A stretch of DNA of 64,000 bases. It comes from Octopus vulgaris. Taxonomy: Eukaryota. Positions 3,220-46,976 of the stretch are shown here, one piece after another. The notes below the pieces were generated by a model that made no database searches, was not told the DNA's origin, and saw nothing but the letters and a program-made list of their open reading frames with translations. Both the position numbers and the translations under genes were made by a program. The stretch is from the NCBI GenBank assembly GCA_951406725.2, contig OX597830.1:24738001-24802000 (forward strand), read 5' to 3'. The stretch's first letter is position 1. Each line of letters opens with the position of its first letter.

Positions 3220-3328
3220 GTCAATTCACCAAATTTAATTATCCCTTAAGACACCAAATAGTTACTGTATTAATTTGCTATCCATAGTTCTTCTCTCAAT
3301 CCAATTTATTCAAGATTTTACAGCTAAT

Positions 3329-3800
3329 TATTTACATTATTTATATTTGATGGATATTTGTCCTCATCTTGTTTGTTGTTAACACAATGCTTCAGCTAAT
3401 ATACCCTCCAGCCTTCATCAGGTGTCTTGGGGAAATTTTGAGCCTGGGTTCTCATTCCTAAGGTATTTTTTGATGCTGCTGCTGTTGCTGTTATTCAGGT
3501 CACTACCTGGAATCAAACTCACCATATGTCCATGGGCATATGGCGTGGTGGTTAAGAGCATGGGCTACTAACTCCAAGATTCTGAGTTCGATTCCAGGCA
3601 GTGACCTCAATAATAATAGGAATAAGAATAAGAAGAAGAAAAATAATAACATTGAAAAATACCTTAGGAATGAGAACCCAGGTTCGAAATTTCCCCAAGG
3701 TACCTGATGAAGGCTGGAGGGTATATCAAACAAGATGAGGACAAATATCTGTCAAATGTAAATAATGTACATAATTCTTCATCTCTTAAATATAGAACTG
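3329..3800. mobile_element. Palindromic tRNA-head plus hammerhead-like element, copy 1
   Basis: Arms 3329-3520 and 3534-3770 are inverted copies; unpaired tail to 3800; TSD tttacagctaat (3317-3328) / tttccagctaat (3801-3812); homologous to 45239-45808. Confidence 0.85.
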
Positions 3801-4694
3801 TTTCCAGCTAATCTCTCATAATTGCCCGAAATGAAAGATTAGGAAATTATTGTCACTAAAAGCTGACAACGAAGAACAATCTTTAGAAGTATTTATCTCT
3901 TCCTTCTCTCACCTCTCATTTACCATTCCTTATTTCTCTGGCATTGTTGCATTTTCTTGCTAATTGAAACACCAGTTCCCTTTCTCTCTGTTGATTGAGT
4001 GAGATTTGGCTGTTATATCTAGAATGGCAAGCTACTGTACAATGGTTACCTTTGTGAGTTTTTGTCTGGCTACGACCGTGTCAACACGACCTGTTGCAAA
4101 AGTTTTTTTTCTTCTTCTTTGAAAATATTGGGCATGATGGTATCAAAACCATTGGTGATATGACTGGTGTGTGGTTTGTACTCTGTAGTTGACAGTCTCA
4201 CCTTTATCTCTCCCAGGGAGTTTTACCTGTTATATGGTAAGTTATAGCAGTAACTACATTTGCATGCAAGCTACTTTATAAAAGAAACATTGTTTTTTTT
4301 TTTTTATCAAACCTCCTGTGGGTTAACTTGGGATCCCTTGATGACAATGGGACCTTCAATTGACAAAGGTACCTTTGGCCAGATGAGTAGCTATTGGAGT
4401 ACCCCTCATTGAGTAATTCCTACTTTCAAAGTTCTGCTAGCTAGGAAACATATGTGGCCTGGATTTTACCTATTCCATTCCCTAAATTTGGATTTTTATT
4501 CACATACATAGCAACCCTAGTTGCTAACTGTGAACTATATAATAATGTTTTCTTTTTTCAGTTTACTGAACTTCAATATAGGTAAAATTAAAAAATTTCT
4601 ATGCCAATAAACCACTATTGTTCCTTCTGTGGACTGCTCCAAACTTACTAACTTCCTATGTGTGGATCCTTGAACCTTTCTTTTACATACATAT

Positions 4695-5107
4695 AGGTGT
4701 AGGAGTGGCTGTGTGGTAAGTAGCTTGCTTACCAACCAAATGGTTTCGGGTTCAGTCCCACTGTGTGGCACCTTGAGCAATTGTCTTCTACTATAGCCTC
4801 GGGCCGATCAAAGCCTTGAAAGTGGATTTGGTAGAGGAAACTAAAAGAAGCCCGTCATATATATATATATATATATATGTGTATGTGTGTGTATATGTTT
4901 GTGTGTCTGTGTTTGTTCCCTCCAACATCGCTTTGACAATGCTGGTGTGTTTACATCCTCATAACTTAGTGGTTCGACAAAGGAGACCAATAGAATAAGT
5001 TCTAGGCTTACAAAGAATAAGTCCTGGGGTCAATTTGCTTGACTAAGGGCAGTGCTCCAGCATGGCCACAGTCAAATGACTGAAACAAGGAACTGAGTAA
5101 AAGAGTA
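4695..5107 (+). mobile_element. SINE family A, full length
   Basis: ggagtggctgtgtggtaagtagcttgc...gggttcagtccc head, internal TA/TG tract, tail. Confidence 0.9.
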
Positions 5108-12751: not shown

Positions 12752-14140
12752 TTGGAGATAGATAAGTTGGAAATTCATACAGTTTTGAAATATGAGTTCT
12801 TTCTTGGAAGTACAGCATCACACACAGCTCAGAATATTAATGGAGTATTTCATTCTAATGCTATTACACAGCAGATAGTATCAAATTGGTTTGCAAAATT
12901 TCGTCCTGCTAACTTTGACTTCACAAATGAGCAACATGGTTGACCAGAAACAAAGGTGGATCATGGCACTCTGTCGGTTACAACGACGAGGGTTCCAGTT
13001 GGTTTGATCAATGGAACAGCCTGCTTGTGAAATTAATGTGCAAGTGGCTGAACACTCCACAGACATGTGTACCTTTAATGTAGTTCTTGGGGAGATTCAG
13101 CATGATACAGTGTGTGACAAGGCTGGCCCTTTGAAATACAGGTACAACAGAAACAGGAAGAAAGAGTGAGAGAAAGTTGTGGTGAAAGAGTACAGCAGGA
13201 TTTGCCACCACCCCCTGCTGGAGCCTCATGGAGCTTTGTGTGTTTTCACTCAATAAACACAACGCCCGGTCTGGGAATCAAAACCGTGATCCTATGACCG
13301 CAAGTCCACTGCCCTAACCACTGGGCCGTTGCACCTCCACAAAGGTAGATAATAACAAACTGAAAGCCACCATTGAGTCAGATCCATCCCAAAGTACCTG
13401 TGAATTATCATTGCTGTTTGGTGTTAGCAAGCAAACAATATTGAGTCACCTAGTTCAAATTGGTAAAGCGAAAAATTTGGATAAGTGGGTTCCACATGAA
13501 CTCAATGAAAATCAGAAACAGCAGCATTTGGAAGCCTAGATTATGCTACTTTCTCATCACACAAATGAGTTATTTTTTAATCGAACTGTAACGTGATGAG
13601 AAATAGATCTAATGCAACAATCATAAATGTTCAGCACAATGGTTGGACAAAGATACCAAAACACAGTCCAAAAAGCAAAATTCATCAAAAGAAGCTGATG
13701 GTGTGTGTTTGGTGGCCCAGCACAGGTGTGATCCATTATGATTTCATTAAACCTAGTAGAAGTATATTGCAGCCAACTGGACCAAATGATGCAGAAACTT
13801 ACAAAAAAATAAAACAGCCTAGATTAGTCAACATCCACTCCTGTTTTATTGCAAGACAACACCAGACCCATCACAAAAATGACCTTGGCAAAACTACAGG
13901 AGTTGGAGTTGGAAGTTCTCCATCATCCACCATACTCACCTGATTTTGCTCTCACTGACTACCACTTTTTCCAGAATTTGGATAACTTTTTGATAAGAAA
14001 AAAATTTAATTCCGCCAATGCTGTAAAACAGGCCTCCAAGATTTTATTGACTCTAGATTGCAAGGCTTTTACAGTTCCAGGCTGGACAAGCTACCAAAGA
14101 AATGGCAAAATGTATTGACAATATGGGTGCATACTTTGAT
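12752..14140 (+). pseudogene. Mariner DD34D transposase pseudogene
   Basis: KLEIHTVLKYEF...NWFAKFR N-terminus, KWVPHEL, KKLMVCVWW, QDNTRP and HPPYSPDFALTDYHFF motifs, with stops and frameshifts. Confidence 0.9.
12965..13340 (-). mobile_element. SINE family C1 (tRNA head gtggaggtgcaacggcccagtggttagg) inserted in the mariner
   Basis: Reverse complement of 27433-27826; TSD aaaggtggatcat (12952-12964) / aaaggtagataat (13341-13353). Confidence 0.9.
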
Positions 14141-20950: not shown

Positions 20951-21398
20951 AAATGACTTATTATTATCCTTGTCATCAAGACACTTGTTACTTCATTGCC
21001 AGTGTTCAACTGGTACTTTTTTTCATCAACCCTGAAAGAACAAAAGGTAAAGTCGACCTCGGCAGTATTTGAACTCTGAATGTGAAAACAGATGAAATAA
21101 AACTAAGAATTTAATCTAGCATGTTATCAATTCTGTCAGATCACCACTCTAGTAATAATAATAATAATAATAGTAATAGTAATAATAATGGCTTCAAATT
21201 TTGGCACAAGGCCAGCAATTTTGTGGGAGCGAGTAATCATTTACACTAACTCCAGTGTTTAACTTGTTCATATTGACCTCAGAAGGATGAAAGGTAAGGT
21301 CGACCTCAACGGAAATTGAACTCAGAGCATAAAGACGAACAAAATGCGGCTAAGCATTTTGCTCAGCATGCTAATGACTCTGCCAGCTCACTGCCTTC

Positions 21399-21447
<49 letters not shown>

Positions 21448-21449
<2 letters not shown>

Positions 21450-21750
21450 TTTCTTTGATTTGCTACAGGGGCATTAGATAAGGGATTCTTTACAAAGACA
21501 GTTTACAATTTGTGTGAGGTTTTACATAAAAGATGAGAAGAGAGAAAGGGAAAAGATGATGAAATGGGATAAAATATTCATAGTATGCAAATTATGTGCA
21601 TACATGAATGATGTAGTTCTCCTGATCCAGGAGAGTCTCTGACTAGGGCCAAACAAGGAACCCCACAAATCCAGGATTACCTTGAGCACCAAAGACACAA
21701 GTCTTCACCCAACTGTTGTTCTGCAATCTATAGGCATATATTCTTTGCAC
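21448..21750 (-). mobile_element. Tx1/L1-like LINE 3' UTR remnant; related piece at 22408-22645
   Basis: Similar to 32015-32450; ends in gcaaatcaaagaaatc followed by (ATT)n on the minus strand. Confidence 0.45.
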
Positions 21751-21960
21751 AGGGCCAGCGGAGGGGTAAGTCAATTACCTCAACCCCAGTTGGCACTTTA
21801 TTTTATTAATCCCAGGTGAGTGAAAAGCAAAGTTGATCTTGGTGACATTTAAACGCAAAATGTTAACCCGGAAGAAATGCGGCAAAGCAGTTTGTCTGGC
21901 ATACTGTCTATTTTGCTAATTCGCCTAATGATAATAAATATAGAACACCAAGATATTAAC

Positions 21961-22140
21961 AGGAGTGGCTGTGTAGTAAGTAGCTTGCTTACGAACCACA
22001 TGGTTCCAGGTTCAGTCCCACTGTGTGGCACCTTGGGCAAGTGTCTTCTACTATAGCCTCGGGCCAACCAAAGCCTTGTGAGTAGATTTGGTAGATGGAA
22101 ACTGAAAGAAGCCCATCGTATATGTGTGTATGTGTGTGTA

Positions 22141-22176
<36 letters not shown>

Positions 22177-22404
22177 TGTATGTGTGTGTGTATGTTTGTG
22201 TGTCTGTGTTTGTCCCCCCAACATTGCTTGACAACCAATGCTGGTGTGTTTACGTCCCCATAACTTAGCGGTTCGGCAAAAGAGACCAATAGAATAAATA
22301 CCAGGGTTACAAAGAATAAGTCCTGGGGTCGATTTGCTCGACTAAAGGCCGTGCTCCAGCATGGCCACACTCTTTTACTTGTTTCAGTCATTTGACTGTG
22401 GCCA
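21961..22404 (+). mobile_element. SINE family A, full length, with inverted 3' tail
   Basis: Consensus-like until about 22368, then ctcttttacttgtttcagtcatttgactgtggcca, the tail in reverse orientation. Confidence 0.9.
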
Positions 22405-22929
22405 GTCAATAATTTGTGTGGTGGGTTACATAAAAGATGAGGAAAAAGAAATGGAAAGATGGTGAAATGCAATAAAAGTATACATATTATAGAAAGTATG
22501 TGAGAACATGAATCATGCAGTCCTCCTGATACAGGAGAAACTCCAACTAAGATCAATTAAGGAATACCACGGATCCAGGATTATCCTGACCACTAAAGGC
22601 ACAAACGTTTGCCAATTGTTGTTCTCCAATCTACAGGTGCATACTTAGAGTAGGGTCATTCACTCTAATAATGATAATCTTTTCTACTATAGGCACAAGG
22701 CCTGAAATTTTGGAGGAGGGAGCTAATCAATTACATCAATCCCAGTGCTAAACTGATACTTATTTTATCAATCCTGAAAGGATGACAGCCAAAGTCAACC
22801 TCAGCAGAATTTGAACTCAGAAAGTGAAGACTGGTGAAATGTCACTAAGCATTTTGTATAGCATGGTAACAATTCCATCAGCTCACCACCTGGCACACTA
22901 TAAATAATAATAATAATAATAATAATAAT

Positions 22930-23337
22930 AAGAGCACTCAGAGAGCACAAACCTCCACCAAGGCAACACCAACATTCTCTCAGCAATTAGCCGGAGATGA
23001 CTTTTAACATGAGAATACCCGAAAAAATAACCTCGACTGCTCTCAGAAATGAGAATACTAAAAATGAATCCAACAGCTTTCAAAAGTTTAAAAAAAATCA
23101 GGATCCCAAAATCTAATCAGTTTGTACCAGTTACGAAGCCAAACATATCTGAAATTTTCATCCAAATCCATCCAGCGGTTTTTGAGTTACCTTGTCCATG
23201 CACAAACAAGCAAACAAACAAACATGGCTGCAAACAATACCTCCAAATCCATCCAGCGGTTCTTGAGATATCTTGTCCATGGGCAAACAAACAAACACGA
23301 CTGAAAACAATACCTCCGCCTTCACTAAGGTGGAGGT
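22930..23337 (-). mobile_element. Helentron-associated non-autonomous element (HINE/DINE-1-like)
   Basis: 5' palindrome acctccacctt-agtg-aaggcggaggt; (GTTT)n; 3' subTIR ccttggtggaggt then terminal hairpin gtgctctctgagtgctc; internal tandem duplication. Confidence 0.7.
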
Positions 23338-25069
23338 GCTGATGATGATGATAATTGTTTCTTGCATATGCACAAAGGCTTGAAATTTAGTGTTGTGGGA
23401 TTAGCTGATGGTATTGTCTCCAGTACTTAACTGGTATTTCATTTCATCACCCCCCACAAAAAAAACCCAAAAAAAACCAAAGACAAAGTTGGCTTCAGCA
23501 GTATTTGAACATAGAATTTAAAGAGCTGCAATAGATACTGTGAAGTGCTTTGTTTCACTCTCCACTTGGCTGAAATTGCAAACTATGGTTCAGAGGAATA
23601 GTCTTAATGATCAATTTGCATTCCACTCACTTCTAAGGATACATGACAGTAATATGGACCAACCTCTAGTATTTTTATTTTATCATAACCTGAAAGATGA
23701 AAAACAAGGTCAGGATTGGAACTGAACACTTTGTGGCAGGTCCCAACAGAACATTTGTTAGTCATTACATCCAGTGCTCCACTGATCCTCCCGATCCAAT
23801 GCCCTGAAGTAATGACTTCTTTTTTTTTTAGTCTCGGGGAAATATCCAAATATTGCAATATTTGAATATTTCCCTGAGACTAATAATATATGTCCATAAT
23901 ATTTCAGTCACACATAATATATCTTTCATCAACACAAAATACTCCTGGATATATTTTACATTGTTGTTGTTGTTGTTGTTATTATTATTATTTTTATTAT
24001 TAAGTAAATAATAGGAACAGTCAAGTGTAAGATATTTCACTGCTGAATGGAAAAAAGGTGTGACATTTATTTCATTTTTTTTTCTTTTTTCATGTAGGAG
24101 GTACAAATAAATGACATCAGAAAAGTGAATAGACAACATTAACTAGGAAACAAACTCTAACTAACCAATGAGAAAGCTTATATGTAGTCAGTTGTTTTTT
24201 TTTTTTTACTTTTTACAGTTGTTGGACTGTGGATTAGCTGGAGCACCATCTTAAGGGGTCTTTTTTTTTTTTCAGTTGATGAGATTTACCTCCCCACCAT
24301 ACTTATCTTAAGCATGATACTTATCCTAGCAGTCTCCTTTTTTTCTCTTTGACAAACTGCTAATTTATGAGGATGTAAACAAACCTACACTAGTCCTCAA
24401 ATGATGACAAACTTAAATATACATACAGGTATGTATGTATTTATGTATATATCACAGTATCATGGTGTTGATCGAACTATCAGATGCTGTTATACATCGC
24501 TAGTCACAATGTGCTTCACATTGTTTCAGCCTTTGAATGATGCCAACATTGCTCCTGATCATAAGGCTATTCTATCATAGGGTTACCCATTTACAGCTGA
24601 GTATGTGTGTATGTATATATATATATAATCAAAATAAGCAACAGGATATCCAGAGGTGATGCCCTATGACCGTTTCAAGCAACTCCATTTAATTGAACAA
24701 TGTAATCTTTACATCAATTTAAATGCAGGGCTATCCTCAGCTGCATAAATAAATAAATAGAATTTGTTTAATCAGTCAGACATATTTGTATAATTTTACT
24801 TAAATCCTCTAAGAGGGTAAGAAAACAGACAAAGTCCATGCTTTTTCACTTCAGCTTAGAAGCTTCTAAGACATCAGGAAAAAAAATTGTTAGGGCCATA
24901 GCTTGTCATTGATTTTGGTTCAGTTTTAATTTATTAAGTCTTGTTTATCAAATCTTTGTACACCTAATTTTGAAGTTGTACAGTTAATACCGCACTAATT
25001 TTCGGTGCTTCAACTTAAGTACCTAATTCATCTGAATCTCAATTATTTTGCTATATATATATATATATA

Positions 25070-25995
25070 GTTCATGGATGAGATCCATATATTCTTTGTA
25101 CAGAATACACTTAGTAGTGTTCAAGAAATTTTAACTTGAGCAGGCAGAGAAGTAGATATAGAGATAAGCAAGTTAGATCAATATATAAAGTATATTAAAT
25201 ACATGAAATACAATAAATGTATATGTGTAAACAATAAAGAAAGGTCCGATTTATACAGAATATAAATGATCTGGAGAATTAAAAATGTTGAGGGAAAGTA
25301 TTACAAATCCAATAGCTGTTTCTGGGGACTTGATGATCCATAATAATGTTTGTAGATTGATGTGATGAGCCTCTGTCTTCAGGGAAGAGATCTTACATTT
25401 CAGATATCAAAGGAGAGAAGTTTGAAGATGGAATGATTGAATGTGGAGAGCTAAGTGTATTAGAGGGGGGAATCAGGGGAGGTATTTAGATAGCGAATAA
25501 TGAGAGGAGAAAATATAGTTCAAGAGGGAAAATATAGTTCAAGAGTTAATAAAGAGGGTGGTGGTGGTGGTGGCGGAGGCGGCGGTGGCGGCGGTAGCAG
25601 CAGCAGCAGTAGAAGGTAGGAGGATGAGAGGAGGGTGGAGTAGGTAGTATGTGAACGATAGTCGGTTGTGTTAAGCTTCCATATAAATAATAGAACTTAT
25701 GTTTGAGATATTGAGAAATGGGAATGGCCATTATCTGAGGGAAGCAAGGTGATTAGTTCGATTCCTGAGGGAGATTATTAAAGTATGTAAAGAAGTAAAA
25801 GAGCCCCTAGAAATAATAGCTGTTGGACTTGTAATACTTTTCCTCAAACCCTTTAATTCTCCATGTTATTTGTATTCTGTGTAAGTCAGACCTTTTTATA
25901 TGCGTACATATAAATATACATTTTTTTCTTTTTTTGGTTTCATGTATTTAACACACTTTATATATTAATCTGTCTAACATGCTTATCTCTACATT
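25070..25995 (-). mobile_element. Degenerate Penelope-like 3' fragment with inverted pLTR
   Basis: Inverted repeat about 25159-25330 / 25801-25992; minus-strand CUGAAGA...GAAACAGCU motif at 25308-25388; possible GIY-YIG C-terminal remnant (YFNNLP, QIMAIP, FIWKLNT across frameshifts). Confidence 0.6.
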
Positions 25996-26140
25996 TATAT
26001 TTATATAGTTCGTATTTGTATTTGGTTTGCAAGATTCTTGATTTGAATTTGTGTGTTGAAAGAAATACTATTGAACTTTGGGAGAAGCACCAGTGCGTGT
26101 GTTTATTACAACCAGCATAATGCCCCTCCCAAGGTTCAAT

Positions 26141-26175
<35 letters not shown>

Positions 26176-26211
26176 GTGTGTGTATGTATGTATGTAAGTA
26201 TGTTATGTATA

Positions 26212-26429
26212 CGTGGGGGTGCTGACAAGTTCTTGACTTTGGATAAAAGAAAATACTGGAGGATCAGTTAATTATGATTTTATTCTACATATTCCCCTCT
26301 CAGATTCACACACTTTTTAGCAGCAATCCTTCAGTTTTTCTAAACCCTGTAAAAGAACTTAAAAGTTTGTGCCTCCAACTAGGCCTTTTGTGATACCCTT
26401 AAAGCCAGGAACGTTTTAACATCCCCTCA
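26212..26429 (-). mobile_element. Irritans-like mariner MITE
   Basis: TA TSD; TIR cgtgggggtgctgacaagttcttgacttt / aaagccaggaacgttttaacatcccctca; CVNLRGEYVE* transposase end on the minus strand. Confidence 0.75.
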
Positions 26430-26666
26430 TATAACTGGCTTCTGTACAATTTCCATCAATTAAATTCAGTAACAGGTTTTTAGTCAACCTAGAGACTATA
26501 CTAAAAACACTTGCTCAAAGTGCTGTGCAGTGTGCTTGAACCTGAAACCATCTGGTAGCAATGTGAACTTCATAGCCACACTGATTGGACACATTGCTAA
26601 AATAGCTTTTGATCATGGGATTTCTGCCCACAGCAGAGAAGAAAACAGGGAAGCCTCACCCATTAA

Positions 26667-26887
26667 CCCTTTCATTACTGCATTTATTTTGAGATGATCT
26701 GTGTTTTTTTCAATTACTTTAAATATAACAAAGAATTTAGTAAAATAACTTGGATATCATTCAGATAGAGTTAGGAATATAAATTGTGACTAAGGTTTGG
26801 TGGGAGATTTTAATTCGAAACGTATGAAAACGAAACATTTGTACTACAGAGCCAGAGCCGGTTTCAGTTGGCTTGGTAATGAAAGGG
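26667..26887. mobile_element. piggyBac-type MITE family 1, second copy
   Basis: TTAA TSD; ccctttcattac / gtaatgaaaggg TIR; homologous to 6402-6599. Confidence 0.85.
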
Positions 26888-27432
26888 TTAATGTCAATGC
26901 AACAAAATCACCAACAACAGCAATGAGAGGAATGGCAACAGTCATATCAGCAACACTAAGTACAAACTACAACACCACCACCACTACCATGTATGTGTGC
27001 TGACATTTCTACATGCCAACTTGTAGTACCTATACATCTGTATGTCTCTATGTATTTCTCTGTAGTTTTCCAAAACATCTTAGAAGTGGCTAAGGCAATA
27101 TTCTTTCATTCCTTTTGCACAAATCACTTGGCTACTCTTGGCTTCTTTTTTTTTTTTTTTTTTTTCCAGGGTGGTGAGTTCTAACCATTCTTTGGGATAA
27201 TCTTAACAATCACCCCACAGTGGTCTGTTATTGTTGCTGTCCACTGCAGTGGAAATGATGTTGGTACTGATGATATAGTTTGGTGGTGCTGCTAGAATTG
27301 GTCAACTATTGAGAGTAGTTTCCCGTACTCATCACCTTGTTAATAATTCATCTTTTCTCAACCTTCCTGTTGCTGTTAAACAGTCTTTTGTTGTTGCTGT
27401 AAACGACCCTTTCAGTCATGACTATGACAGTA

Positions 27433-27826
27433 GTGGAGGCACAATGGCCCAGTGGTTAGGGCAGCAGACTTGCTGTTGTAGGATCACGGTTTTAATTCCC
27501 AGACTGAGCATTGTGAGTGTTTATTGAGTGAAAACACCTAAAGCTCCATGAGGCTCCAGCAGGGGGTGGGGGTGGAGGTGGCGAACTCTGCTGTACTCTT
27601 CTACCATAACTTCCTCTCACTCTTTCTTCCTGTTTCTGTTATATCTGTATTTCGAAGGGTCCAGCCTTGTCACACTCTATGTCACGCTGAATCTCCCTGA
27701 GCGCTACATTAGGGGTACACGTGTCTGTGGAGTGCTCAGCCACTTGCACGTTTATTTCATGAGCAGGTTGTTCTATTGATCAGATCAACTGGAATCCTCA
27801 TCATCATAACCAACAGAGTGCCACGC
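27433..27826 (+). mobile_element. SINE family C1, full length
   Basis: A box tggcccagtgg, degenerate B box ggttttaattcc; TSD tgacagta (27425-27432 / 27827-27834). Confidence 0.9.
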
Positions 27827-28189
27827 TGACAGTAGTAGTGGCTGTTGCATTAGCTACTGCAAGAAGAGGGTTACCATTCTGTGTGAAAGTGGCAAATTTG
27901 TCTCACCTCACTGACCATTCTTGGTATCACTATCCTGGTCAGCTGGTAAATTGGCTGCTATTTTATTATATTTGTTGTTTTGAAATTTTCCTATGGAAAA
28001 GATATTTTTCATAAATTTATATAAGCTCCAATGGGACAAGAAACAAAGGAAAAAACCAACTCATTGTGATCATGACTGGTTCTACAACAAAACGGGACAC
28101 AAATATGTTCAAGATAGAAACACAACAAGGAGGTTAGATATGTCTTACATAGATCTTAGCAATAACAACAACAACAATAATGATAATAC

Positions 28190-28394
28190 TCCTTTCTACT
28201 ATAGGCACAAGGCTTGAAATTTCTTGGGAGGGGACCAATCGATTAGATCGACTTCAGTATGCAACTGATACTTAATTTATCGACCCCAAAAGGATAAAAG
28301 GTAAAGTCGACCTCAACAGAATTCGAACTCAGAATGTAGCAACAGGTGAAATACCACTAAGCATTTCATCCAGCATGCTAACAATTCTGCCAGA
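28190..28394 (-). mobile_element. SINE family D
   Basis: cctttctactataggcacaaggc...atcgaccccaaaaggataaaagg...gaactcagaa. Confidence 0.8.
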
Positions 28395-28418
28395 TATATA
28401 TATATATATATATATATG

Positions 28419-28472
<54 letters not shown>

Positions 28473-28948
28473 TCTCTCTATATATATATGTATGTTTGTA
28501 TGAGTGAGAAAGAGTGGGGAATGAGATTAAAGAATAACAAGAGAATGTTTACTGAAGAGATGACTCAATAGAGTCAAATTTATTGTCAAATCCCATTCAA
28601 CTTGAATCTTACCATATGCACACACACAAACACCAACCACACACACACACATACATATAACTTGTGTTTTTTTTATGAAATGCAAAAGTGTTTTGGTAGG
28701 TGATAGTTTGGTCTACAGTAAGAGACCGTGACCCCTGGCTTTTGCAGGGCTACTGAGGTTTCCATGTGACCAGTGTAGATAATAATATTCTTGAAAAATT
28801 CTTCAAGTTAAAAAATACAGGGAAGAACATGGACAGGGGAAGATTTCCAGATGGCTGACATTTGGGGGAAGAAGGACTGGAGAAAATGGGGCTAATATGG
28901 AGGCTGGACAAAGCTGAGGTTATTGAATGAACATAACATGGATGACTT

Positions 28949-29396
28949 CAATGGCTCGGGAACAGAATTTACTTAGGGAGTGCAAACCCAGATCCAAAAC
29001 ATTTTACAAAAAAGGTCTCTACACTCACGGAGTGGCTACACTCACGGAGTTGTTGGCATTAGGAAGGGCATCCAGCCGTAGAAACACTGCCAGATCTGAC
29101 TAGGCCTGATGAAGCCTTCCGGCTTCACAGACCCCAGTTGAACTGTCCAACCCATGCTAGCATGGAAAACGGACGCTAAACGATGATGATGATGTCTTAT
29201 TCTCCTTTTTTTTTTTTAATTAATTTTCATTTTTTATTCTTTAAGAAGAAACTGAAGTTCAAGCTACTTTTTATAGATCACTTTCCACTCACTGTTTTCT
29301 AAACCTGAGAAAAGTGAGTAGGGGTGCAAATTTTAATTTTGCACTGCCCAAAAATTTTAGGCAGTGCACTTGCAACCCCCTATTCCTGGGCCAATG
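28949..29396. mobile_element. MITE with 8-bp TSD (hAT-type), containing a SINE B fragment
   Basis: TSD gatgactt (28941-28948 / 29397-29404); TIR caatggctcgggaa / ttcctgggccaatg. Confidence 0.75.
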
Positions 29397-29554
29397 GATG
29401 ACTTAACTCTTTTGATGGCAACTTGCCTGAAACTAGTGTTTTGAAGTGATTTAAATTAAAACCTTCCATCAAGATTTCCTGTTAATTTATTTTTCAAACA
29501 CCAGCTCAATGACAAAGTGATTTCACTAAATCTCTTATTATTTTCTAAAGTAAT

Positions 29555-29948
29555 GTGGCTATGTGGTAAGTAGCTTGTTTACCAACAACATGGTTCCAGG
29601 TTCAGTCCCACTGCGTGGCACCTTGAGCAACTGTTTTCTACTATAGCCTCGGACCGACCAAAGCCTTGTGAGTGGATTTGGTAGACGGAAACTGAAAGAA
29701 GCCTGTCATATATATGTATATATGTGTATGTGTGTGTATATGTTTGTGTGACTGTGTTTGTCCCCCCAACCATCACTTGACAACCGATGCTGGTGTGTTT
29801 ACGTCCCCGTAACTTAGCGGTTCGGCAAAAGATACCAATAGAATAAGTACTAGGCTTACAAAGAATAAGTCCTGGGGTCGATTTGCTCAACTAAAGGTGG
29901 TGCTCCAGCATGGCCACAGTCAAATGACTGAAACAAGTAAAAGAGAGT
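29555..29948 (+). mobile_element. SINE family A, near full length
   Basis: Consensus-like body with many CpGs intact. Confidence 0.9.
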
Positions 29949-30787
29949 AATGGCAGTATACTTCAGCTGAAATATTATAGCAGAAGGGTTGAAAGAGGAG
30001 CACCTAAATAATGTATGGTATGTCGTCTGAGACTCTACCATTAGAAATATCTCGACTCTGTTCTGTTGGTCTCAGTTCATTGGTTTCAGTTTTTAGACTG
30101 AGTAATTTTTCAGTTCAGACTGGGTTGGGATTATTTTTGCTTTTCTATCAGGAAGTGACTTGCATATTTGTTGTATTTCTTATTAAGTCAAAACGTCAAC
30201 TATTAGCATCATCATCATGTTTTTGTTGCCACTGCTATTGTTGTTGTTGTTGTTGTCGTCGTTTGCTCAATCCTTGCCCTTCTGGACGAAGCAGGCCTAT
30301 GATCAAAGAAAACTATTCCAGCCTTGACCACCCCATCTGTTTGTACATTGGATGTCAAGAATTACATTGTCCAGTGTCTCCTTCCTGCTTTATGACATTA
30401 TTTTGTCATTTCAAGTAGCAATTTCTTTGCGGGATAAGTCATTGCATAGACACTTACCTGGTACATCATCAGATAGTGGACACCTGCAGTAGATAAGACC
30501 TAATGTTTGCATGCACACGCACACACACACACACACACACAATCACCACCCGACTGTAAAATATCTAATACTATTATGGTTCCTCTTATCGCCCAGTAAT
30601 GTAATATGACTCACATGTCACGTATTTGAAGCGATGAACAAACACGACACAAAAGTAAAGCAGATGTTCTACACACAATAGTCTATCCTGAAAAAGACAA
30701 TACTGTGCATACTTCGTAAACATGCAGGTGTACCTAGTGATGGAAGTAGAAACATGCATCGGACCTTTGATGATGACAATAATAATA

Positions 30788-31265
30788 ATCCTTTTTACTA
30801 AAGGCACAAGGCCTGAATTTTTCATGGGGAGGGGACTAGTTGACTACATCAACCCCACATCCTGAAAGGAACAAAGGCAAACTTGTTGGAATTTGAACTC
30901 AGAACATTAAGACAGACAGAAATTCCACTAAGCATTTGCCTGGCATGCTAACAATTCTACCAGCTTGCTGCCTTAATAATAATAGTAATAATAATAATAA
31001 TAATCTTTTCAACTATAGGCACAAGGCCTGAATTTATGGGTGAGGGGACTAGTTAATTACTAGTGTTTCACTGGTATTTAACTTATCGACCCCAAAAGGA
31101 TGAAAGGCAAACTCGACCTTGCCAGAATTTGAACTCAGAATGTAAAGACAGATGAAATGCTGCTAAGTGTTTTGTTTGGTGTGCTAACTAATGATTCAGT
31201 AGCTCGTCACCTTAATCATAATAATAATGGTTTCAAGTTTCAGCACAAGGCCAGCTTGCCACATT
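30788..31265 (-). mobile_element. Tandem SINE family D copies separated by (AAT)n
   Basis: Two near-complete copies and a fragment; more at about 33237-33357, 34688-35175, 36757-36895(+), 61400-61575 and 62080-62285. Confidence 0.8.
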
Positions 31266-31689
31266 AATAGTAATCATCATCATTTAATGTCTGCTTTCCA
31301 TGCTAGCATGGGTTGGACGATTTGACTGAGGACTGGCAAACCAGATGGCTGCACCAGGCTCCAATCTAATCTGGCAGAATTTCTACAGCTGGATGCACTT
31401 CCTTACACCAACCACTCCGAACGATAATAAAAGTAATGATAATATACAACAAATTTGGGTGGAAGGAATGAGTTAATTAAAACTACTTCACAAACTGACT
31501 TGGGTACTTTATTCTGTTGATCCCATAAAATAAAGGGTTCAGACAAAAGACAAAGTTGAACTTGGCAAAATTTGAAATAAGCAAATAAAAAGCTGGAACA
31601 AATGCAGGAAGGCATTTGATCAAGTGTTCTACCCACTTTGCTAATCCACTACCCATAACAATAAGAACAACAACAACAAAAACAACTGA

Positions 31690-32014
31690 CCTTTGATCTT
31701 TGGAGCTTTGGGGACAATACCAAATGGTGCTCTTCAACATAACGGCCGAATGCCAGGAAACCCAAAGTGTCAGAAATACAAAAATTTCTTCTCACGAATG
31801 CTGCCCACTTCCTAAGAAAAACATTGTGTCGACTTCAAAATACCTGATTCACGTAAAATTCTTTCAAAACTGAAGTATTACAAATTTACTTCTCAGGTTT
31901 TGGTCTCCTTCCTGTTAATCATGAATAACGTCCCATAATAAAACATTCCAACTTGCTTACTTCAGGCTGAGACCTTGAACAGCTTGTATTAAACAAAGCA
32001 ATAACATAAATAAT
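31690..32014 (+). pseudogene. R4/Dong-type (restriction-like endonuclease) LINE 3' end
   Basis: IFGALGTIP...MPGNP then (frameshift) EIQKFLLTNAAHFLRKTL, the typical C-terminus of this group; runs into a TAA-like tail. Confidence 0.75.
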
Positions 32015-32115
32015 AAGGATTTCGTTTATTTGCCACCAGGGTGAAGGATGAAGGGGACAATACAAAGCAGACATACAGTGTTGGGGTTTACATATAATGA
32101 AATGATAAATAAATA

Positions 32116-32153
<38 letters not shown>

Positions 32154-32450
32154 CAATGATAATAAAAAGAGTAAGTATGCAAGGTATATAATACAAAGGT
32201 TACCAAAAAAAAAAGGGTCATGTGATAGAGATAGAGACCTTCTGTTTCAAGATGACCTTTCGGGATAATCAAGGAACCTCACTGTCTGAGATTTCCTTGA
32301 ACACCAAGGGTAAGTGCCCTCTCCAGTTCACTTTCTGTGACTCACAGGTCTACACTCAGAGAGGTACCATCCACTCTTGCCATTGTTGCAACTTTCACCC
32401 ACCTTTCAGTAAATTCACTCCAGGAGAGCACTTCCTTCTCCACCCTGTAA
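32015..32450 (-). pseudogene. Tx1/L1-like LINE 3' end
   Basis: Minus translation RVEKEVLSWSEFTERWVKVATMARVDGTSLSVDL*, then 3' UTR ending ggcaaataaacgaaatcc-(TTA)n; family assignment from memory of F..RW termini. Confidence 0.5.
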
Positions 32451-32537
32451 TAATAGGTTACTTGTAGCCTGATGTTAGGACTTTAATCTGTTGTGCATAA
32501 ATAAAATAATAATAATAATAATAATAATGATAATAAT

Positions 32538-33235
32538 TAATTCGTTTATTGGCAACAAGGGCTTACATAAAATTACATTAAAACACATACAACATAAAAG
32601 ACAAAAACAGTACGATACAATGGGTTTTATGTGTAAGCAATATAATAACAATTAAAATTAAACAATTTAAAACTCCTAATAGGGGAAGCGCATTAAGGAC
32701 CTTGTGAAAAAACCCACAAAAGTCACAGGTGCCTGAACAACAGGGCAAGAGCCCTTCTCCTCTTGTTTACAAGTGCACGTTCAGAATTGGTCTTTCACAC
32801 TGGCCATTCTGCCTCTTTGGATACAGCCACTAGACAACTAAAAATTGCCTTCCCCTCCTGGTCAAAAGTGGGTGGCGGGGCAAACTTCTCAATGGATTCA
32901 GCTGATAGCCAGATCTGTCCTACACATAACAGCAGGTGTTCGACATAAACCCACAGGACAGCAATACTCGGGAACTGGACTAGGGTGTGCAGAACAGTTT
33001 AATTATTCTGGTTCTGGGCACACCTTGGGCAGGCCCGGCTGATGGCACTTCCATGCCTGTAAAGTTTATCTCGAAAAGGCTTCATTCCTCAGTAGCACTG
33101 CCAGGCAAGGAATTTCTGAAGATTGTCCATAGGCCCAGGCATGAAAGTTCTCTGAAACAGACCGGTTAGTCGATCTTCATCGATGCCCAGAGTTTCCCTG
33201 AGAACATCGTCACACTTTCCTTCCACAATTTTTTA
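32538..33235 (-). mobile_element. LINE-like 3' region ending gccaataaacgaatta-(TTA)n
   Basis: Same terminal motif as 32015; GC-richer body; no protein motif recognised. Confidence 0.45.
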
Positions 33236-34087
33236 GGGAAAGGGTGATGAAAGGAAAGTCGACCTCGGCGGAATTTGAACTCAGAACGTAGCGGCAGATG
33301 AAATACTGCTAAGCATTTCGCCCAGCGTGCTAACATTTCTGCCAGCTCACCGCCTTAAAGAGTTGGAAGAAATACCACCAACTTGTTATGTATTTTACCT
33401 GTTCCTCACCTTAGTAACGAATTATGCCAGCTTTATGAAATACCAACAGAGAAGAAAAAAAAAAAGGTACAGGCATACTCCATAAAGGTTTCTTGATAAT
33501 AAGGCAATTACCATACACTGGAATATGTTAATACACTCAGAATGAGAGATCAAGACTCATTTGACCAGATTTTGTTGTCAAGGATCACCAAAGATTAAAA
33601 GAATGACCACCTAATAAATATATATATATATGTATATGATGGGCTTCTTTCAATTTTCTGTCTATCAAATCCACTCACAAGGCTTTGGTTAGCCCGAGGC
33701 TATGGCAGAAGACACGTGCCTAAGGTGTCACACACTGGGACTGAACCTGGAACCATGTGATTGGTAAGCAAGCTACTTACCACACAGCGATCTTGCAGAA
33801 ATAGGAATATAGGAGAGATATAATGACCTAAAAATAGAGATGATGTGAATCAATACTTGTAATTATAAGTGCTTTGCGGGTGATTAATAAACATGGGGAC
33901 GAATAAATAGTTAGAACTCCAGGATTTACAAATATGCATAACATACAAAAATAGCTCTATTATTAACCACTGCTCAGGTATGTAGAGTACGCTTGATAGA
34001 ACTGAAAATAAATATAGAAAAGAAAAAAAAAAACTCTGCTTGTATTTAAGGAACACTGAGATGCATTCTGTAGTGTAGTAAAGGCAT

Positions 34088-34118
<31 letters not shown>

Positions 34119-34120
<2 letters not shown>

Positions 34121-34659
34121 GCCCTGGCAGTGACTCTCGTGGCTTCTGATCTTAACTGATTGGAAGTGTTATCATGTACATTGTTTTGTCTTGGTATAAA
34201 AGATGGGCTACCGCAAATATTCTGCTCAATACCACAGATTTGTTTGTCAGTTGTTTGACCTTAACCAGTTGAGCATGTCCCTTAGTGGCTGATGATATGT
34301 GCATCTCTGATCACAAGCAGAAGTAGTGGGGGAGCATCATATCCATGTGTTGAGAGGGATTCTTAGAGGTTTGGATAATTCACCCCTGGAAACATGTGTG
34401 TTTCATTCAACATCCTTAAACAACCCTCAACGACCTTTTGAGCAGGATGGGTTACTCGACCAGAAGAAAATTCTAACTGGGCCCCCACCTGCAAAGTCAT
34501 GTGCTGTTTATCTTGATATGAGATCACCATGTTGTGCACATATGGTTGTGATGCATGTGCCTAGTGTACCCTTATCAGACGTGTAGTCATGATGGGTATA
34601 CTGGGCTTCATATATTTTACCCCAGTGTCACTTTGATGGCATACACTGCTCTCTCACTC
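34119..34659. mobile_element. Unclassified ~540-bp insert within an (AAT)n tract
   Basis: Pure (AAT)n on both sides, complex GC-richer body, no TIR or ORF recognised. Confidence 0.55.
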
Positions 34660-36526
34660 AATAATAATAATAATAATAATAATAATAATCCGTTGTACTA
34701 TAGGTATAAGGTCTGAAATTTTGGAGGAGGGGGCTTGTCAACAGCATCGACCCCAATGTTTCATTGGTACTTAATTTATTGACCCTGAAAGGATGAAAGG
34801 CAAATTCAACCTCAGTGGAATTTGAACTCGGAATATAAAGAAGGACGAAATGCTGCTAAGCATTTTGCCTGGCATGCTAGTGTTTCTGCCAAGCTGGCCT
34901 CCTAATAATAATAATAATAATAAGGTGCATGGCCTGAAATTTGGGGTCATAGGTCAAGTTGATTACGATCACCCCTATGCTCAACTGGTACTTATTTTCT
35001 TAACCCCAAAAGGATAAAAAGCCAAATCAACTTCAGTGGAGTTTGAACTCAAAATGTAAAGAGGTGGAAGAAATGTCAATAAGCATTTTGCTCACCACCT
35101 TAATAATAATAATGGTAGTAATAATAATAATAATAATCCTTTCTACTATAGGCAGAGGGCCTGAAATTTTGGGGAACCATTCAACCCATGCCAGCATTAA
35201 AAAAAATGGATGTTGATAATGATGATAATCTTGATGAGTTGAATTAACTTCTCCCCATCTGCCAAAATTTCTAACCGTGTACTTGTGTTAGAAATGAATA
35301 TTATTTTGACAGAATGATCAGCACGACAATAGACAAGATCAAGAGATCAACCAAAGACAATAAAGCAAAGTGATCTCACCTGCTACCTGAGGCCTAGATG
35401 GCCACAACTGGCCAGAGATAGACCAGTAGAAGGAGTCCAGGGAGGAGATCCTCCTTCAGGAGTGATGAAGCCCTGAATAGATTAGATCTGTGTTTTAGTC
35501 CAAATCCTGCACAAGTTCAACTTTGTGTAGCTTTTCAAGGTCAGTAATATATAACAGCAGTCAAACAATGGGGGCCAGTATTATCAATATAAACCACTTT
35601 CCTTCCCCTAATTCAAGGCTTTGGGCCTGCACTATAAATAGCATTAATTTTATAAATTTATCTTTAAAAATCTAGATATTTTTGTTGTTATTATTGTCCT
35701 TACAGGAATTCCAAAAAGCAAGTTGAACAACTGTTATTTAACTGGGTAAATGTTTTGTAATAACTACAGTTTTTCTCATGACTCATTTTGTAATACAAAT
35801 ATCGTAATTCATACAAAAATACATTTGCATTTTAGACTTAGTTGTTGTCGTCAGTGTCTCAGGATTCAAGGGTTTGTGAATAAAACCGTCATAAACACAT
35901 ACACATTGACACTGCTTTCTTTCAGAATACAATGAACTCTTTATTCTCTATGCTTCCAATCATAGTAGGCTCTTTTTTTGACGCCAACTATCTTTTCATG
36001 CTCTCGGCTATTTCTCATGCTTCAATTGTAAGAAATACACTTACTATCGCCTATTATTGACATTTTACTGATCAGAAAAAAAGTATTGACTCACCAAATA
36101 TAGTTTTTTATTTCCTTTTTTTTTTTTTAATTTTCACACACACACACACACAGACATACAAGGTTATGTAAGTATAAGAACATACCTTTATATTATTCCA
36201 AATAGTTTATCATACCTTGTCTTGCTGTTACCAATCTGTGATTGTTGTTCCCATGGTGGCAGCTGATAAATCACAAGCTTTCTCAATTACAAAATGTTCA
36301 CTTCTGCATAATGTTTCGGAAAAATTGTTCTGTGCATATCTTCATTTCTTTGAACTCTTGTAGACTGCCAAAAATAGGGGAAATGGTGTGACAGATGCTA
36401 GGTTTGCATTTTCAGTTTTGTTTCAGATTGACTGGAACAAATACTACCAAAACTAATTTGGTTCTTTAAATTCCACACCATCAGACACACCCAATATGAT
36501 TTTAGGGACAGTATGATTCCATTTAA

Positions 36527-36896: not shown

Positions 36897-37961
<1,065 letters not shown>

Positions 37962-40326: not shown

Positions 40327-40357
<31 letters not shown>

Positions 40358-44682: not shown

Positions 44683-45238
44683 TATAAACAGTTGCTTATA
44701 AATAGCTACATGTAAACATATATCAGGTCATTGCCCTGTTTTGGAGAGAAGAAATATTTAATATTTTTTCTCATATTGCCGCCTTCAACTTATTGTATTT
44801 CTATGGCAGGTAGGGCAACTTCAATATTGTTATTCTAAGATCTGAACTGATAACCCAATAAATAGTATATAAATGTCTTCTGGGGCTTTAGAACACACTT
44901 GAAACTTGTGCCATAAGTATTGATTTCTAGTAGATATGAAATATATATATACACTATTATATAAACTACGCTTATATATATATTCTCTTATTACTACAAT
45001 AAACTGATATCTTATTCTAAATGCCTGTTAGATGAGAGGACTTGGCATCAAGGTCACTAAATATTTTTGTATTTTAATGTTTTGTCAAGACACTTGACAC
45101 ATTTTATTGGTGGTGGGTTTCTTTAGCAGAGACCAGTTCAAAAAACTTAAAATCCCATCTCTCAACTTTCATAGCTCATTAACTTATGACAATGTTAAGT
45201 TTATTTTATATTGCATTTTGTTAATAACAGTGTCATTA

Positions 45239-45808
45239 TTTACATTATTTACATTTGACAGATATTTGTCCTCATCTTGTTTGTTTTTAACACAATGTTT
45301 CGGCTGATATACCCTCCAACCTTCACCAGGTGTCTTGAGGAAATTTCGAACCTGGGTTCTCATTCCTAAGATATTTTTCAATGTTGTTGTCATTATTATT
45401 AATATTGTTATTATTATTATTAGTTAGGTCACTGCCTGGAAACAAATTCGGAATCTTGGGGTTAGTAGCCTGTGCTCTTAACCACTACATCATATGCCCT
45501 GGCATATGGCATAGTGGTTAAGAGCACAGGCTACTAACTCCAAGATTCCGAGTTCAATTCCAGCAATGACTTGAATAATAATAACAATAATAATAATAAT
45601 AGTAATAGTAATAATAATAATAATAACATCGAAAAATACCTTAGGAATGAGAACCTAGGTTTGAAATTTCCTCAAGACACATGATGAAGGCTGGAGGGTA
45701 TATCAGTCAAAACATTTTGTTAAAAACAAACAAGATGAGGACGAATATCTGTCAAATGTAAATAATGTTAATAACGTAAATAATTCCTCATCTCTTAAGT
45801 ATAGAACC
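45239..45808. mobile_element. Palindromic tRNA-head plus hammerhead-like element, copy 2
   Basis: Head-to-head arms about centre 45499-45500; perfect 13-bp TSD aacagtgtcatta (45226-45238 / 45809-45821); ~25-nt unpaired tail. Confidence 0.9.
45289..45334 (-). ncRNA. Degenerate minimal hammerhead-like motif
   Basis: GACAC-CUGGUGA-A-GGUUG-gagggtatat-CAGCC-GAAA-CAUU-GUGUU; sister arms (3381-3426 minus, 3704-3710) supply CUGAUGA and GGCUG. Confidence 0.6.
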
Positions 45809-46976
45809 AACAGTGTCATTAGTTAAGTTTCTAACACATCAATCACAGGTTTGTTGCTTTTTAAGATGGCAAGAGTAACAAGGGAGTTTTTGTATAATTT
45901 AGGCAAAACAAATTCCACAAGAGATTAAAGTTAGAAGACACTGGTTTATAAGCTTTTTCAGTAATGTTTACATCTTTCATTGATGTACTACATTGAAAGA
46001 TGTATACATAATACACACACATGATGGAATTTCCTTCAGTTTCCAGCTGATCAAATTCAACTCACAAAGCTTTATTATTGGTGACCTTTAAAAGCCAGCA
46101 GCACTGCCAAAAATATCAGAGTTCTCTTTTCATACATCAAAATTATTGATTTTAATTCCATTTCTTGTTTAAGTTGACCCATAGCAAACAAGTGTCACAT
46201 ACCAAGGAAACACTTTTAGTTTCTGTCTTGTCCACATATCTTTAAGGAAATTGGAGAAAAGTTCTGTGTTCTGATTCTTTGATGAAGACAAACTGTCTAG
46301 TGCATAAGCATAATTGCATGCATGGAATTACTTGAATCATTTTGCACTTACTTGATCTTCAACTTAGTTTTAGGGACGTTTAAGAAATAAGATAAATGAA
46401 CCAGCCAACCATTGTTCTTCATTGTTTTGTGTTTCTGTGTCTCTGAAAGAGAGTAAGAGAGTGAAATTGTTGCACTTGTAATTATGCATCATAAAGAAAT
46501 CTAATCCATTCCGGAAATGTCACCGAATAATAAAATGTAGAATAATTGTAGCAGAACATGTTAGGTGAGAAAGAAGGAATACAAAATAAAGTTTCTTTTA
46601 TTTCAAAATCATTTTTTTCTTTTTATTTATAAACTTTTGTTTTGTTTTGTTTACGACAATTTATCTTTTATTATATCCTTTTTGTTTCGATACAATTTGA
46701 TAGAGGTGAATGAAACTTGTTACCATAATTTTCTCTTCCTGTTTCCTTTGATAAACAAACAGGTTTTGTTTGTTGTGAGACAATATTTGGTGTTAAGAAT
46801 GCTCATTATTTCTATGTGTCTGCAGATGCACGAGATCAGTTTATCAACCGTTTTCTTTTCTTCTCAACGATGCCTCTTCCTTTTATTAATGGCTTTCAAC
46901 AGTCCTCTATTATACCTAATCTATTGTGAATTTATTTACTTAAGTCTAGATATTCTCTAACTCTGTACTGATGCCC

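What the first reader, a model, noticed from the sequence alone, without database searches (positions are those of the whole stretch)
3317..3812. Independent copy of the tRNA-hammerhead palindrome with its own TSD
It has the same ends as the 45.2 kb copy (left start ttatttacattattta, right tail catctcttaaatatagaac) but a different 12-bp TSD. The whole palindrome is therefore the reproducible insertion product, not a local rearrangement. The two arms carry different deletions, so they decayed independently after insertion.
Basis: seen in the sequence. Interest (0 to 1): 0.7.

Follow-up and report, generated by a model that had tools for sequence, protein, structure and literature searches.

The report
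tRNA-headed, Penelope-dependent palindromic retroelement
This 472-base mirror-image insert is a decayed copy of a very abundant octopus jumping element that likely pairs a tRNA-derived promoter with the ribozyme-bearing end of a Penelope-like retrotransposon and is likely built as a head-to-head pair each time it lands, a combination of known parts that I did not find described.

Summary
Confirmed. Positions 3329-3800 form a head-to-head palindrome between 12-bp direct repeats (11/12 match); the copy at 45.2 kb has a different, 13-bp duplication. In one of four laid runs, pieces of equal depth end in exact register for an empty site holding one 12-mer (inferred by arithmetic). The family is very abundant in all four runs, has sharp ends and shows no poly(A) tail. 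Each arm carries A/B-box motifs, a (TAA)n spacer and about 120 bases with a minimal hammerhead motif. A 25-base tail sits on one arm only. That is the published Penelope-like (PLE) insertion signature. In a related family the same segment runs in frame into a protein I recognise, from recall only, as a PLE N-terminus. Corrections: arms look variably 5'-truncated family-wide, so the geometry recurs, not one fixed palindrome. Independent decay is shown by substitutions; the deletions are undated. Both ribozyme motifs here are broken. The dimer:monomer ratio was not counted and the exact autonomous partner was not found. The new part is a tRNA-type head on a PLE end, which ten literature searches did not show. 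New variant of a known kind; interest 0.5.

The parts
3317..3328 (+). Left copy of the 12-bp target-site duplication; its last ~3 nt also match the element's end (microhomology)
   Evidence: the empty-site piece in run X14 extends to 3320, so this copy keeps the ancestral base
3329..3531 (-). Left, inverted arm, without tail; 39 nt of the tRNA-like head missing at 3521/3522
3381..3426 (-). Minimal type I hammerhead motif of the left arm (5-bp stem I, core, one bulged base, 6-bp stem II); a core change at 3390 and a stem III change at 3388 relative to the family majority, so predicted inactive
   Evidence: family letters tables 3 and 7
3530..3535 (.). Palindrome centre (6-bp self-complementary), 1-2 nt upstream of the tRNA-like position 1
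   Evidence: sequence; the same centre is implied by the start of O. bimaculoides gene model P0011
3532..3800 (+). Right, direct arm = one monomer with tail
3534..3606 (+). tRNA-like head: A box 3541-3551, B box 3584-3595; no T4 run on the sense strand of this arm; cloverleaf decayed
   Evidence: not called by ARAGORN or Rfam; fold z +1.26
3607..3654 (+). (TAA)n-derived spacer, different in length and letters in each of the four arms
3655..3775 (+). pLTR-like body: hammerhead 5' half (core 3704-3710) with its 3' half removed by a 23-nt deletion at about 3727; two 9-nt repeats at 3758-3775
   Evidence: 70-78% identical over the hammerhead region to sister-family copies in L004
3776..3800 (+). 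About 25-nt tail present on one arm only
   Evidence: family end sharp at 3800/3801 in all four runs (table 7)
3801..3812 (+). Right copy of the target-site duplication (one substitution, at 3804)
45226..45821 (.). Second, more complete copy: 13-bp duplications 45226-45238 and 45809-45821, inverted arm 45239-45499, direct arm with tail 45500-45808

Best explanation
This is a decayed insertion of a very abundant non-coding octopus retroelement whose monomer joins a tRNA-like A/B-box head to the hammerhead-bearing end (pLTR plus tail) of what is likely a Penelope-like element (PLE), and the head-to-head pair is likely built at each insertion by the borrowed PLE enzyme. Shown: palindrome, one duplication around the whole pair, tail on one arm only, A/B boxes, minimal hammerhead motif, high abundance, sharp ends. 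Inferred steps: (1) RNA polymerase III would transcribe an arm outward from the centre, giving a monomer RNA rather than a hairpin. (2) A PLE reverse transcriptase/GIY-YIG endonuclease would bind the pLTR part and nick AT-rich DNA on both strands 12-13 nt apart. (3) Each 3' end would prime a cDNA, one from the distal start site (arm with tail) and one from the internal site (arm without tail, helped by 3-5 nt of microhomology). (4) The two cDNAs would be joined where they stop: at the RNA 5' end in full-length cases like this one, earlier in truncated ones. (5) The arms then decayed separately. The hammerhead is likely a passenger of the protein-recognised region and is broken in both arms of this copy. 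About 0.8 for PLE dependence; about 0.5 for two-strand priming over fold-back self-priming.
For: Architecture matches published PLE insertions: an inverted 5'-truncated copy and a 30-40 bp tail at one end (PMC8557442, passages); inverted pLTRs with the tail on one, 8-10 bp duplications, head-to-head junctions (PMC3846280, passages and Discussion). The motif has the PLE minimal-hammerhead traits, a bulged base before stem II and a palindromic stem III (PMC4209133; descriptor hits in 2 of 4 arms, 0 of 1000 shuffles; intact core in the family loose-end consensus). A PLE protein nicks and extends both strands, starts at two sites that bound the tail, is predicted to be a dimer and does not need ribozyme cleavage (PMC11167929). 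Empty site in register in run X14. Tail-less ends (270, 256, 200, 223 contigs before 3327) and tailed ends (316, 361, 262, 330 behind 3801) are of similar number; tail/arm depth is 0.36-0.45 (weak). The centre sits at the tRNA-like 5' end in both window copies and, by its peptide, in gene model P0011. Copy 2's arms share a non-CpG variant absent from the family loose-end consensus, plus a second variant absent from both arms of this copy. In a sister family the homologous segment continues in frame past the tail into the same protein in 3 records (P0049, P0054, P0057), as in Penelope/Poseidon. P0057 also has an inverted arm upstream, and L004 holds tandem, inverted and direct copies.
Against: No reverse transcriptase-bearing partner with this exact end was found. 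The sister-family protein is a PLE N-terminus only by my recall: the Atlas gave DUF8422, PDB gave 0 hits and the model was poor (pLDDT 45). ARAGORN and Rfam do not call the head a tRNA or the motif a hammerhead. Covariation across 6 motif copies did not exceed shuffles (160 of 500). Only 3 of 21 retrieved gene models with over 40 residues upstream show an inverted arm there (biased sample, mostly the sister family). Contig depth is not a copy number, and only the top rows of the joint and loose-end tables were shown. The 12-13 bp duplications are longer than the 8-10 bp in PMC3846280, and the in vitro study reports initiation without target homology. No transcript data were obtained.
Confidence: 0.75

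Rival explanations
1. Same element and same PLE enzyme, but the second arm is made by fold-back self-priming or a template switch of one cDNA, not by priming from both target strands.
For: Proposed for PLE inverted junctions in PMC3846280 (Discussion). The centre is a short self-complementary word. Some joints in run X3 centre on an internal 6-bp palindrome of the arm (tables 5, 5c), although X3-only joints may be library artefacts. Copy 2's arms share variants.
Against: It needs an antisense template or an extra step to give head-to-head order. It does not by itself explain why the tail-less end overlaps the 3' end of the duplicated target in both copies, nor extension of both strands in vitro.
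Confidence: 0.3
2. The tRNA-like piece is a passenger inside a longer PLE 3' region; these are ordinary 5'-truncated PLE stubs and Pol III plays no part.
For: Most arms seem to lack the head (head/arm depth 0.14-0.22). The cloverleaf is decayed and uncalled. Short PLE stubs with inverted copies are common.
Against: Arms stop at the tRNA-like 5' end in both window copies and, by inference, in P0011. No consistent upstream extension appears among the 24 loose-end rows shown. A and B boxes are correctly placed (0 of 2000 shuffles). Three of four arms lack any sense-strand T4 run.
Confidence: 0.17
3. A master palindrome is copied whole, as a MITE or foldback DNA transposon or as a hairpin RNA.
For: Both window copies are near full-length palindromes with similar ends. 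The centre recurs in P0011. One short-arm joint (3427 to 3533) is seen in all four runs.
Against: The ends are not inverted repeats of each other (tail on one side). Duplication length differs (12 vs 13 bp). The centres of the two copies differ. Many different junctions are listed. Pol III from either arm would run outward and miss the other arm.
Confidence: 0.08
4. An ordinary LINE-mobilised SINE later turned into a palindrome by local repair or by a second insertion.
For: tRNA-type head; SINEs dominate octopus repeats (PMC9068888 passage; PMC13282606).
Against: One duplication encloses both arms and the inferred empty site lacks both. Sequence beyond the right end is heterogeneous (agreement 0.41-0.42) with no A-tail. 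Both arms contain the 3' end, unlike L1 twin-priming inversions (recalled).
Confidence: 0.03

Closest known systems
Insertion unit of endonuclease-bearing Penelope-like elements, Penelope/Poseidon type (PMC3846280, PMC8557442, PMC11167929)
   Same: Head-to-head inverted copy, tail on one end, short variable duplication, AT-rich target, minimal hammerhead near the 3' end; in the sister family the pLTR plus tail runs into a reading frame.
   Different: No coding region; monomer about 270-310 nt with a tRNA-like A/B-box head; duplications 12-13 bp; tail about 25 nt.
Minimal hammerheads of metazoan PLEs (PMC4209133)
   Same: Core, bulged base before stem II, 5-bp stem I, palindromic stem III; opposite-strand pairs 100-700 bp apart were noted in Schistosoma.
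   Different: Both motifs of this copy are broken; no tRNA head is described in the parts read.
SMalpha SINE-like repeats of Schistosoma (as reviewed in PMC6765202 and PMC8490949; original paper not read)
   Same: Pol III-type promoter followed by a type I hammerhead in a non-coding retroelement.
   Different: SMalpha is described in head-to-tail tandems released by cleavage; this family is dispersed, head-to-head, with a PLE-type tail and duplication.
Non-LTR retrozymes and other non-autonomous PLE derivatives (bioRxiv 10.64898/2026.07.22.740005; PMC7229834; MRC1 in PMC8557442)
   Same: Non-coding, hammerhead-bearing or pLTR-forming, argued to borrow PLE proteins.
   Different: Defined by tandem arrays; the preprint's text has 0 occurrences of 'tRNA' or 'polymerase III'.
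Helenus / TRIMp3 (PMC10886601)
   Same: A tRNA-derived Pol III promoter grafted onto a non-autonomous element of a class other than LINEs.
   Different: LTR class; 'Penelope' occurs 0 times in that paper. The present element would be the PLE counterpart.
Octopus tRNA-derived SINEs OK, OR1, OR2 (Ohshima and Okada 1994, not read) and the 'Twin' label of the first octopus genome paper (recalled; paper not held)
   Same: tRNA-derived, abundant, same genus.
   Different: OR1 and OR2 are cited as CORE-SINEs. No central domain lies between head and pLTR part here. Identity with a catalogued family could not be tested.

Membership tests
PLE-mobilised (non-autonomous) element | Inverted 5' copy giving a head-to-head structure | tested here: met
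   both window copies; further loci
PLE-mobilised (non-autonomous) element | Short tail on one end only | tested here: met
   about 25 nt on the right arm of both copies; published range 30-40 bp
PLE-mobilised (non-autonomous) element | Minimal type I hammerhead motif in the terminal repeat | tested here: met
   descriptor hit in 2 of 4 arms, 0 of 1000 shuffles; intact core in family loose ends; Rfam silent; covariation not above shuffles
PLE-mobilised (non-autonomous) element | Short, variable target-site duplication | tested here: met
   12 and 13 bp; empty site inferred in run X14
PLE-mobilised (non-autonomous) element | 3' end shared with an autonomous RT + GIY-YIG element | tested here: inconclusive
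   sister family, 70-78% alike over the hammerhead region, continues into a protein in 3 records; that protein is PLE-like by recall only; no RT seen
Autonomous PLE | ORF with reverse transcriptase and GIY-YIG endonuclease | tested here: not met
   arms of 203-309 nt with stops in all frames of the full arm
tRNA-derived SINE | Internal Pol III A and B boxes at the 5' end | tested here: met
   A box 3541-3551, B box 3584-3595; 0 of 2000 shuffles
tRNA-derived SINE | Recognisable tRNA homology | tested here: inconclusive
   no ARAGORN or Rfam tRNA match; box layout fits; resemblance to an arginine tRNA is recalled only
tRNA-derived SINE | LINE-derived 3' end with poly(A) or simple-repeat tail | tested here: not met
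   sharp end at 3800/3801 followed by heterogeneous flanks (table 7)
tRNA-derived SINE | Transcription by RNA polymerase III | not testable with these tools
   contigs cannot show RNA ends or polymerase
Non-LTR retrozyme | Head-to-tail tandem units, each with a hammerhead | tested here: not met
   both window copies are head-to-head; tandems were seen only in the sister family
MITE / foldback DNA transposon | Terminal inverted repeats reaching both ends, and a fixed duplication length | tested here: not met
   tail on one end; 12 vs 13 bp

The most novel reading that the evidence does not exclude
A Pol III-driven 'SINE' that parasitises a Penelope-like element rather than a LINE, not yet described as such, present at 10^4-10^5 copies in Octopus. 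Its partner's two-strand priming lays down a ready-made hairpin of about 200-270 bp per arm at most insertions, so this one family may supply a large share of the long double-stranded RNA behind octopus hyper-editing, and its young copies would show directly how PLE inverted ends are made.
Probability: 0.35. Interest if true: 0.75.

Novelty: new variant of a known kind. Interest (0 to 1): 0.5.

Why it matters
SINE heads are known on LINE ends and, as TRIMp3, in LTRs; I found no report of one on a PLE end with head-to-head insertion (searches; Repbase and Dfam were not available, so the family may be catalogued under another name). How PLE inverted ends and tails arise is still open (PMC8557442, PMC11167929). 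A short, very abundant element with a defined 5' end lets one test two-strand priming against fold-back by comparing the arms of young copies. Octopus has exceptionally high hyper-editing and near-perfect dsRNA potential, and its repeats were left out of the repeat analysis in PMC5625713; a self-palindromic family is a candidate source. The single copy flagged here is an ordinary dead member.

Tried and rejected
No genome is held, so copies could not be counted. A 30-letter pattern found 0 matches in metagenome and viral contigs. A protein-based metagenome scan gave 3 loci (L001-L003) that do not match the element at DNA level; dropped. No RNA holder was listed; this is not evidence on expression. 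Rfam at E up to 10 gave only hairpin/miRNA and snoRNA chance matches below their gathering scores. The open frame across the 3' part is not evidence of coding here: hits are short gene models that read through repeat copies, with no RT or GIY-YIG Pfam match in 56 proteins scanned, and P0010, P0015, P0021 are unrelated (diatom, rodent or unnamed repeat proteins). The single-sequence search of longer proteins found nothing. The structure model of P0057 was too poor for a fold search. The e1L head was misaligned; corrected counts are. Joints seen only in run X3 were not relied on, as they may be library fold-backs. Summed depth ratios of 1-3 x 10^5 overcount and are not used as copy numbers; window density gives about 87,500 (95% range 10,600-316,000) for 2.8 Gb. 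Supplements of PMC11167929 had no usable sequence text, and its GenBank file, which could test the sister protein's identity, is unreadable here. Two papers were not held. Look-ups of earlier findings by sequence, place and relatives, and one by words, were blank.

Full report
Observation. The window holds two copies of the element and no others (blastn). The flagged copy spans 3329-3800 between direct repeats at 3317-3328 and 3801-3812 (12 bp, one mismatch). The second spans 45239-45808 between exact 13-bp repeats. A 12-mer with at most one mismatch arose in 66 of 20000 random position pairs, and in 6 of 20000 outside simple repeats. Each copy is two arms joined head to head. The right arm has about 25 extra bases at its outer end. 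The left arm's outer end overlaps the duplicated target by about 3 nt here and 5 nt in copy 2. The left arm lacks 39 nt of the head and the right arm lacks 23 nt of the hammerhead.

Anatomy of one arm. From the centre outward: a 73-nt tRNA-like head with an A box (3541-3551) and B box (3584-3595); a (TAA)n-derived spacer; about 120 nt with a minimal hammerhead motif; two or three 9-nt repeats; the optional tail. The box layout occurred in 0 of 2000 shuffles. The hammerhead descriptor hit 2 of 4 arms, each with one core change, and 0 of 1000 shuffles. ARAGORN and Rfam call neither feature, the head does not fold better than shuffles, and covariation over six motif copies did not exceed shuffles (160 of 500). 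So both labels rest on motifs. The family's loose-end consensus has the intact core and palindromic stem III, whereas this copy's left motif has a core change and its right motif has lost its 3' half; both are predicted inactive.

Family-level evidence. No genome is held, so I laid contigs of 4 of the 24 listed runs on 3225-4280. Summed depth is in the millions over most of the two arms against tens on the flanks in all four. That is not a copy number; two copies per 64 kb would scale to about 87,500 (10,600-316,000) in 2.8 Gb (genome size from PMC13282606). Ends are sharp: 270, 256, 200 and 223 contigs leave before 3327, and 316, 361, 262 and 330 leave behind 3801, into heterogeneous AT-rich sequence with no A-tail. 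Only 24 of 2275 loose-end rows and 15 of 476 joint rows were shown. Tail depth is 0.36-0.45 of arm depth, near the 0.5 expected for one tail per pair; head depth is 0.14-0.22, suggesting frequent 5' truncation. Both ratios are weak measures. Several listed joints link a shortened left arm to a shortened right arm; one (3427 to 3533) is in all four runs, many only in X3, where they may be artefacts.

Empty site. In run X14, record 8 (358 nt, depth 47.7) lies on 3805-3974 with 100 letters left over on its left. A piece of the same depth lies on 3225-3320 (96 letters, derived from the from_end column), and one X14 record runs over the end of the stretch. The gap is 484 bp = 472 + 12, in exact register with the duplication. 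I infer an empty site with one 12-mer; the joint itself is not among the rows shown. X14 has no other flank version. X2 and X3 carry the window-like flank and a second version sharing X14's variants, so the empty site may be an orthologue, an allele or a paralogue. It differs from the window's flanks at 23 of 266 positions.

Host and relatives. Gene models that read through copies of the element come from Octopus bimaculoides (P0001, P0011), O. sinensis (P0035) and O. vulgaris (P0061). P0011 begins with the peptide expected from the same palindrome centre as this copy. A sister family has the homologous segment in head-to-tail tandems and inverted arrangements. L004, a probable host contaminant in a bacterial assembly, shows this at DNA level, 70-78% identical over the hammerhead region. 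In 3 of the 14 hits (P0049, P0054, P0057) the segment continues in frame past the tail into one protein, and P0057 has an inverted arm upstream. I recognise that protein as a PLE N-terminal region from recall only: the Atlas returned DUF8422 clusters, PDB nothing, and the model was poor. Antisense-then-sense matches were seen in 5 of 47 proteins and, with filtering, 4 of 62; 3 of 21 with room upstream and 0 of 30 with room downstream had an inverted arm. This sample is biased and does not show that pairs dominate. No partner with RT was found.

Mechanism. The architecture is that of PLE insertions: an inverted truncated copy and a tail at one end (PMC8557442, passages); inverted pLTRs, tail on one, 8-10 bp duplications, and a pLTR that holds the first codons of the ORF (PMC3846280, passages and Discussion); minimal hammerheads with a bulged base and palindromic stem III (PMC4209133, parts 1-2 of 4). 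A purified PLE protein nicks and extends both strands, starts at two sites bounding the tail, is predicted to be a dimer and does not need ribozyme cleavage (PMC11167929, parts 1-2 of 4). I therefore infer that a Pol III monomer RNA is copied from both nicks, once with and once without the tail, and that the cDNAs are joined at their ends. The centre lying 1-2 nt before the tRNA-like position 1 in both copies fits a template that begins at a Pol III start. Copy 2's arms share two variants not seen in this copy, one also absent from the family consensus, so they came from one source or were homogenised. Fold-back self-priming remains a live rival for this step.

One insertion, not a local rearrangement: supported. 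A fixed palindrome as the unit: not needed and probably wrong, since the centres differ and arms look variably truncated. Independent decay: shown by 10 differences in 147 columns (copy 2: 20 of 208), including a CpG that decayed on opposite strands in the two arms (family letter). The deletions are not the family norm, since most contigs lie on the intact counterpart, but they are undated.

Comparison and novelty. Non-autonomous PLE derivatives are known (MRC1; retrozymes, preprint parts 1-2 of 5 and passages; PMC7229834 passages; Heliconius). A Pol III promoter with a hammerhead is known in Schistosoma SMalpha, in tandems (review passages). tRNA heads in LTRs are known (passages). Octopus OR1 and OR2 are cited as CORE-SINEs (passages); the original paper and the first octopus genome paper were not read. 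A 2026 O. vulgaris annotation (parts 1-2 of 3) lists many unclassified SINEs without this description. Ten searches showed no tRNA-headed PLE dependant in their listings; Repbase and Dfam could not be checked. Earlier AI notes on head-less PLE palindromes in other genomes agree with the geometry but are leads, not support. Verdict: a real, dead copy of a new variant of a known kind. Interest 0.5, because the geometry is published while the tRNA head, the abundance and the possible link to octopus double-stranded RNA (PMC5625713 passages; untested) are not, as far as I could search.

Noticed in passing
window 40150-40330 (motif at about 40211): A different repeat with a hammerhead-like core, short stem II and the same palindromic stem III word; possibly the end of another PLE family. 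The descriptor's other stray hit, at 17952, looks like chance.
   Followed up: partly
window 3225-3290 and 3834-3944: Runs X2 and X3 carry a second version of the right flank (X2 also of the left flank) that shares variants with run X14's empty site; seven shared differences cluster in 3864-3914. Deep allele, introgression or paralogue is unresolved.
   Followed up: partly
window 3981-4052: Short fragment of another repeat family: summed depth in the hundreds to thousands against tens on either side.
   Followed up: no
P0011 and P0035 (Octopus gene models): Annotated isoforms, one named dystrobrevin beta, begin with sequence from this element; either annotation artefacts or exonised copies.
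   Followed up: no
L004:1-470 and 2135-2286 (contig CBDHDV010000339.1): A contig filed in a Rubritalea assembly carries copies of the sister repeat and a ~119-bp tandem array, so it is probably animal host contamination.
   Followed up: partly
window 4712-4901, 21972-22161, 29562-29751, 36898-37087 and others; 21159-35173: At least two other dispersed SINE-like families with 8-15 copies each in the window (families D16-D20).
   Followed up: no
window 44401-44715 (+), 13828-14118 (+), 54881-55413 (-): Open frames that resemble, by recall, Mariner transposase C-termini and a Helitron helicase fragment; not searched.
   Followed up: no
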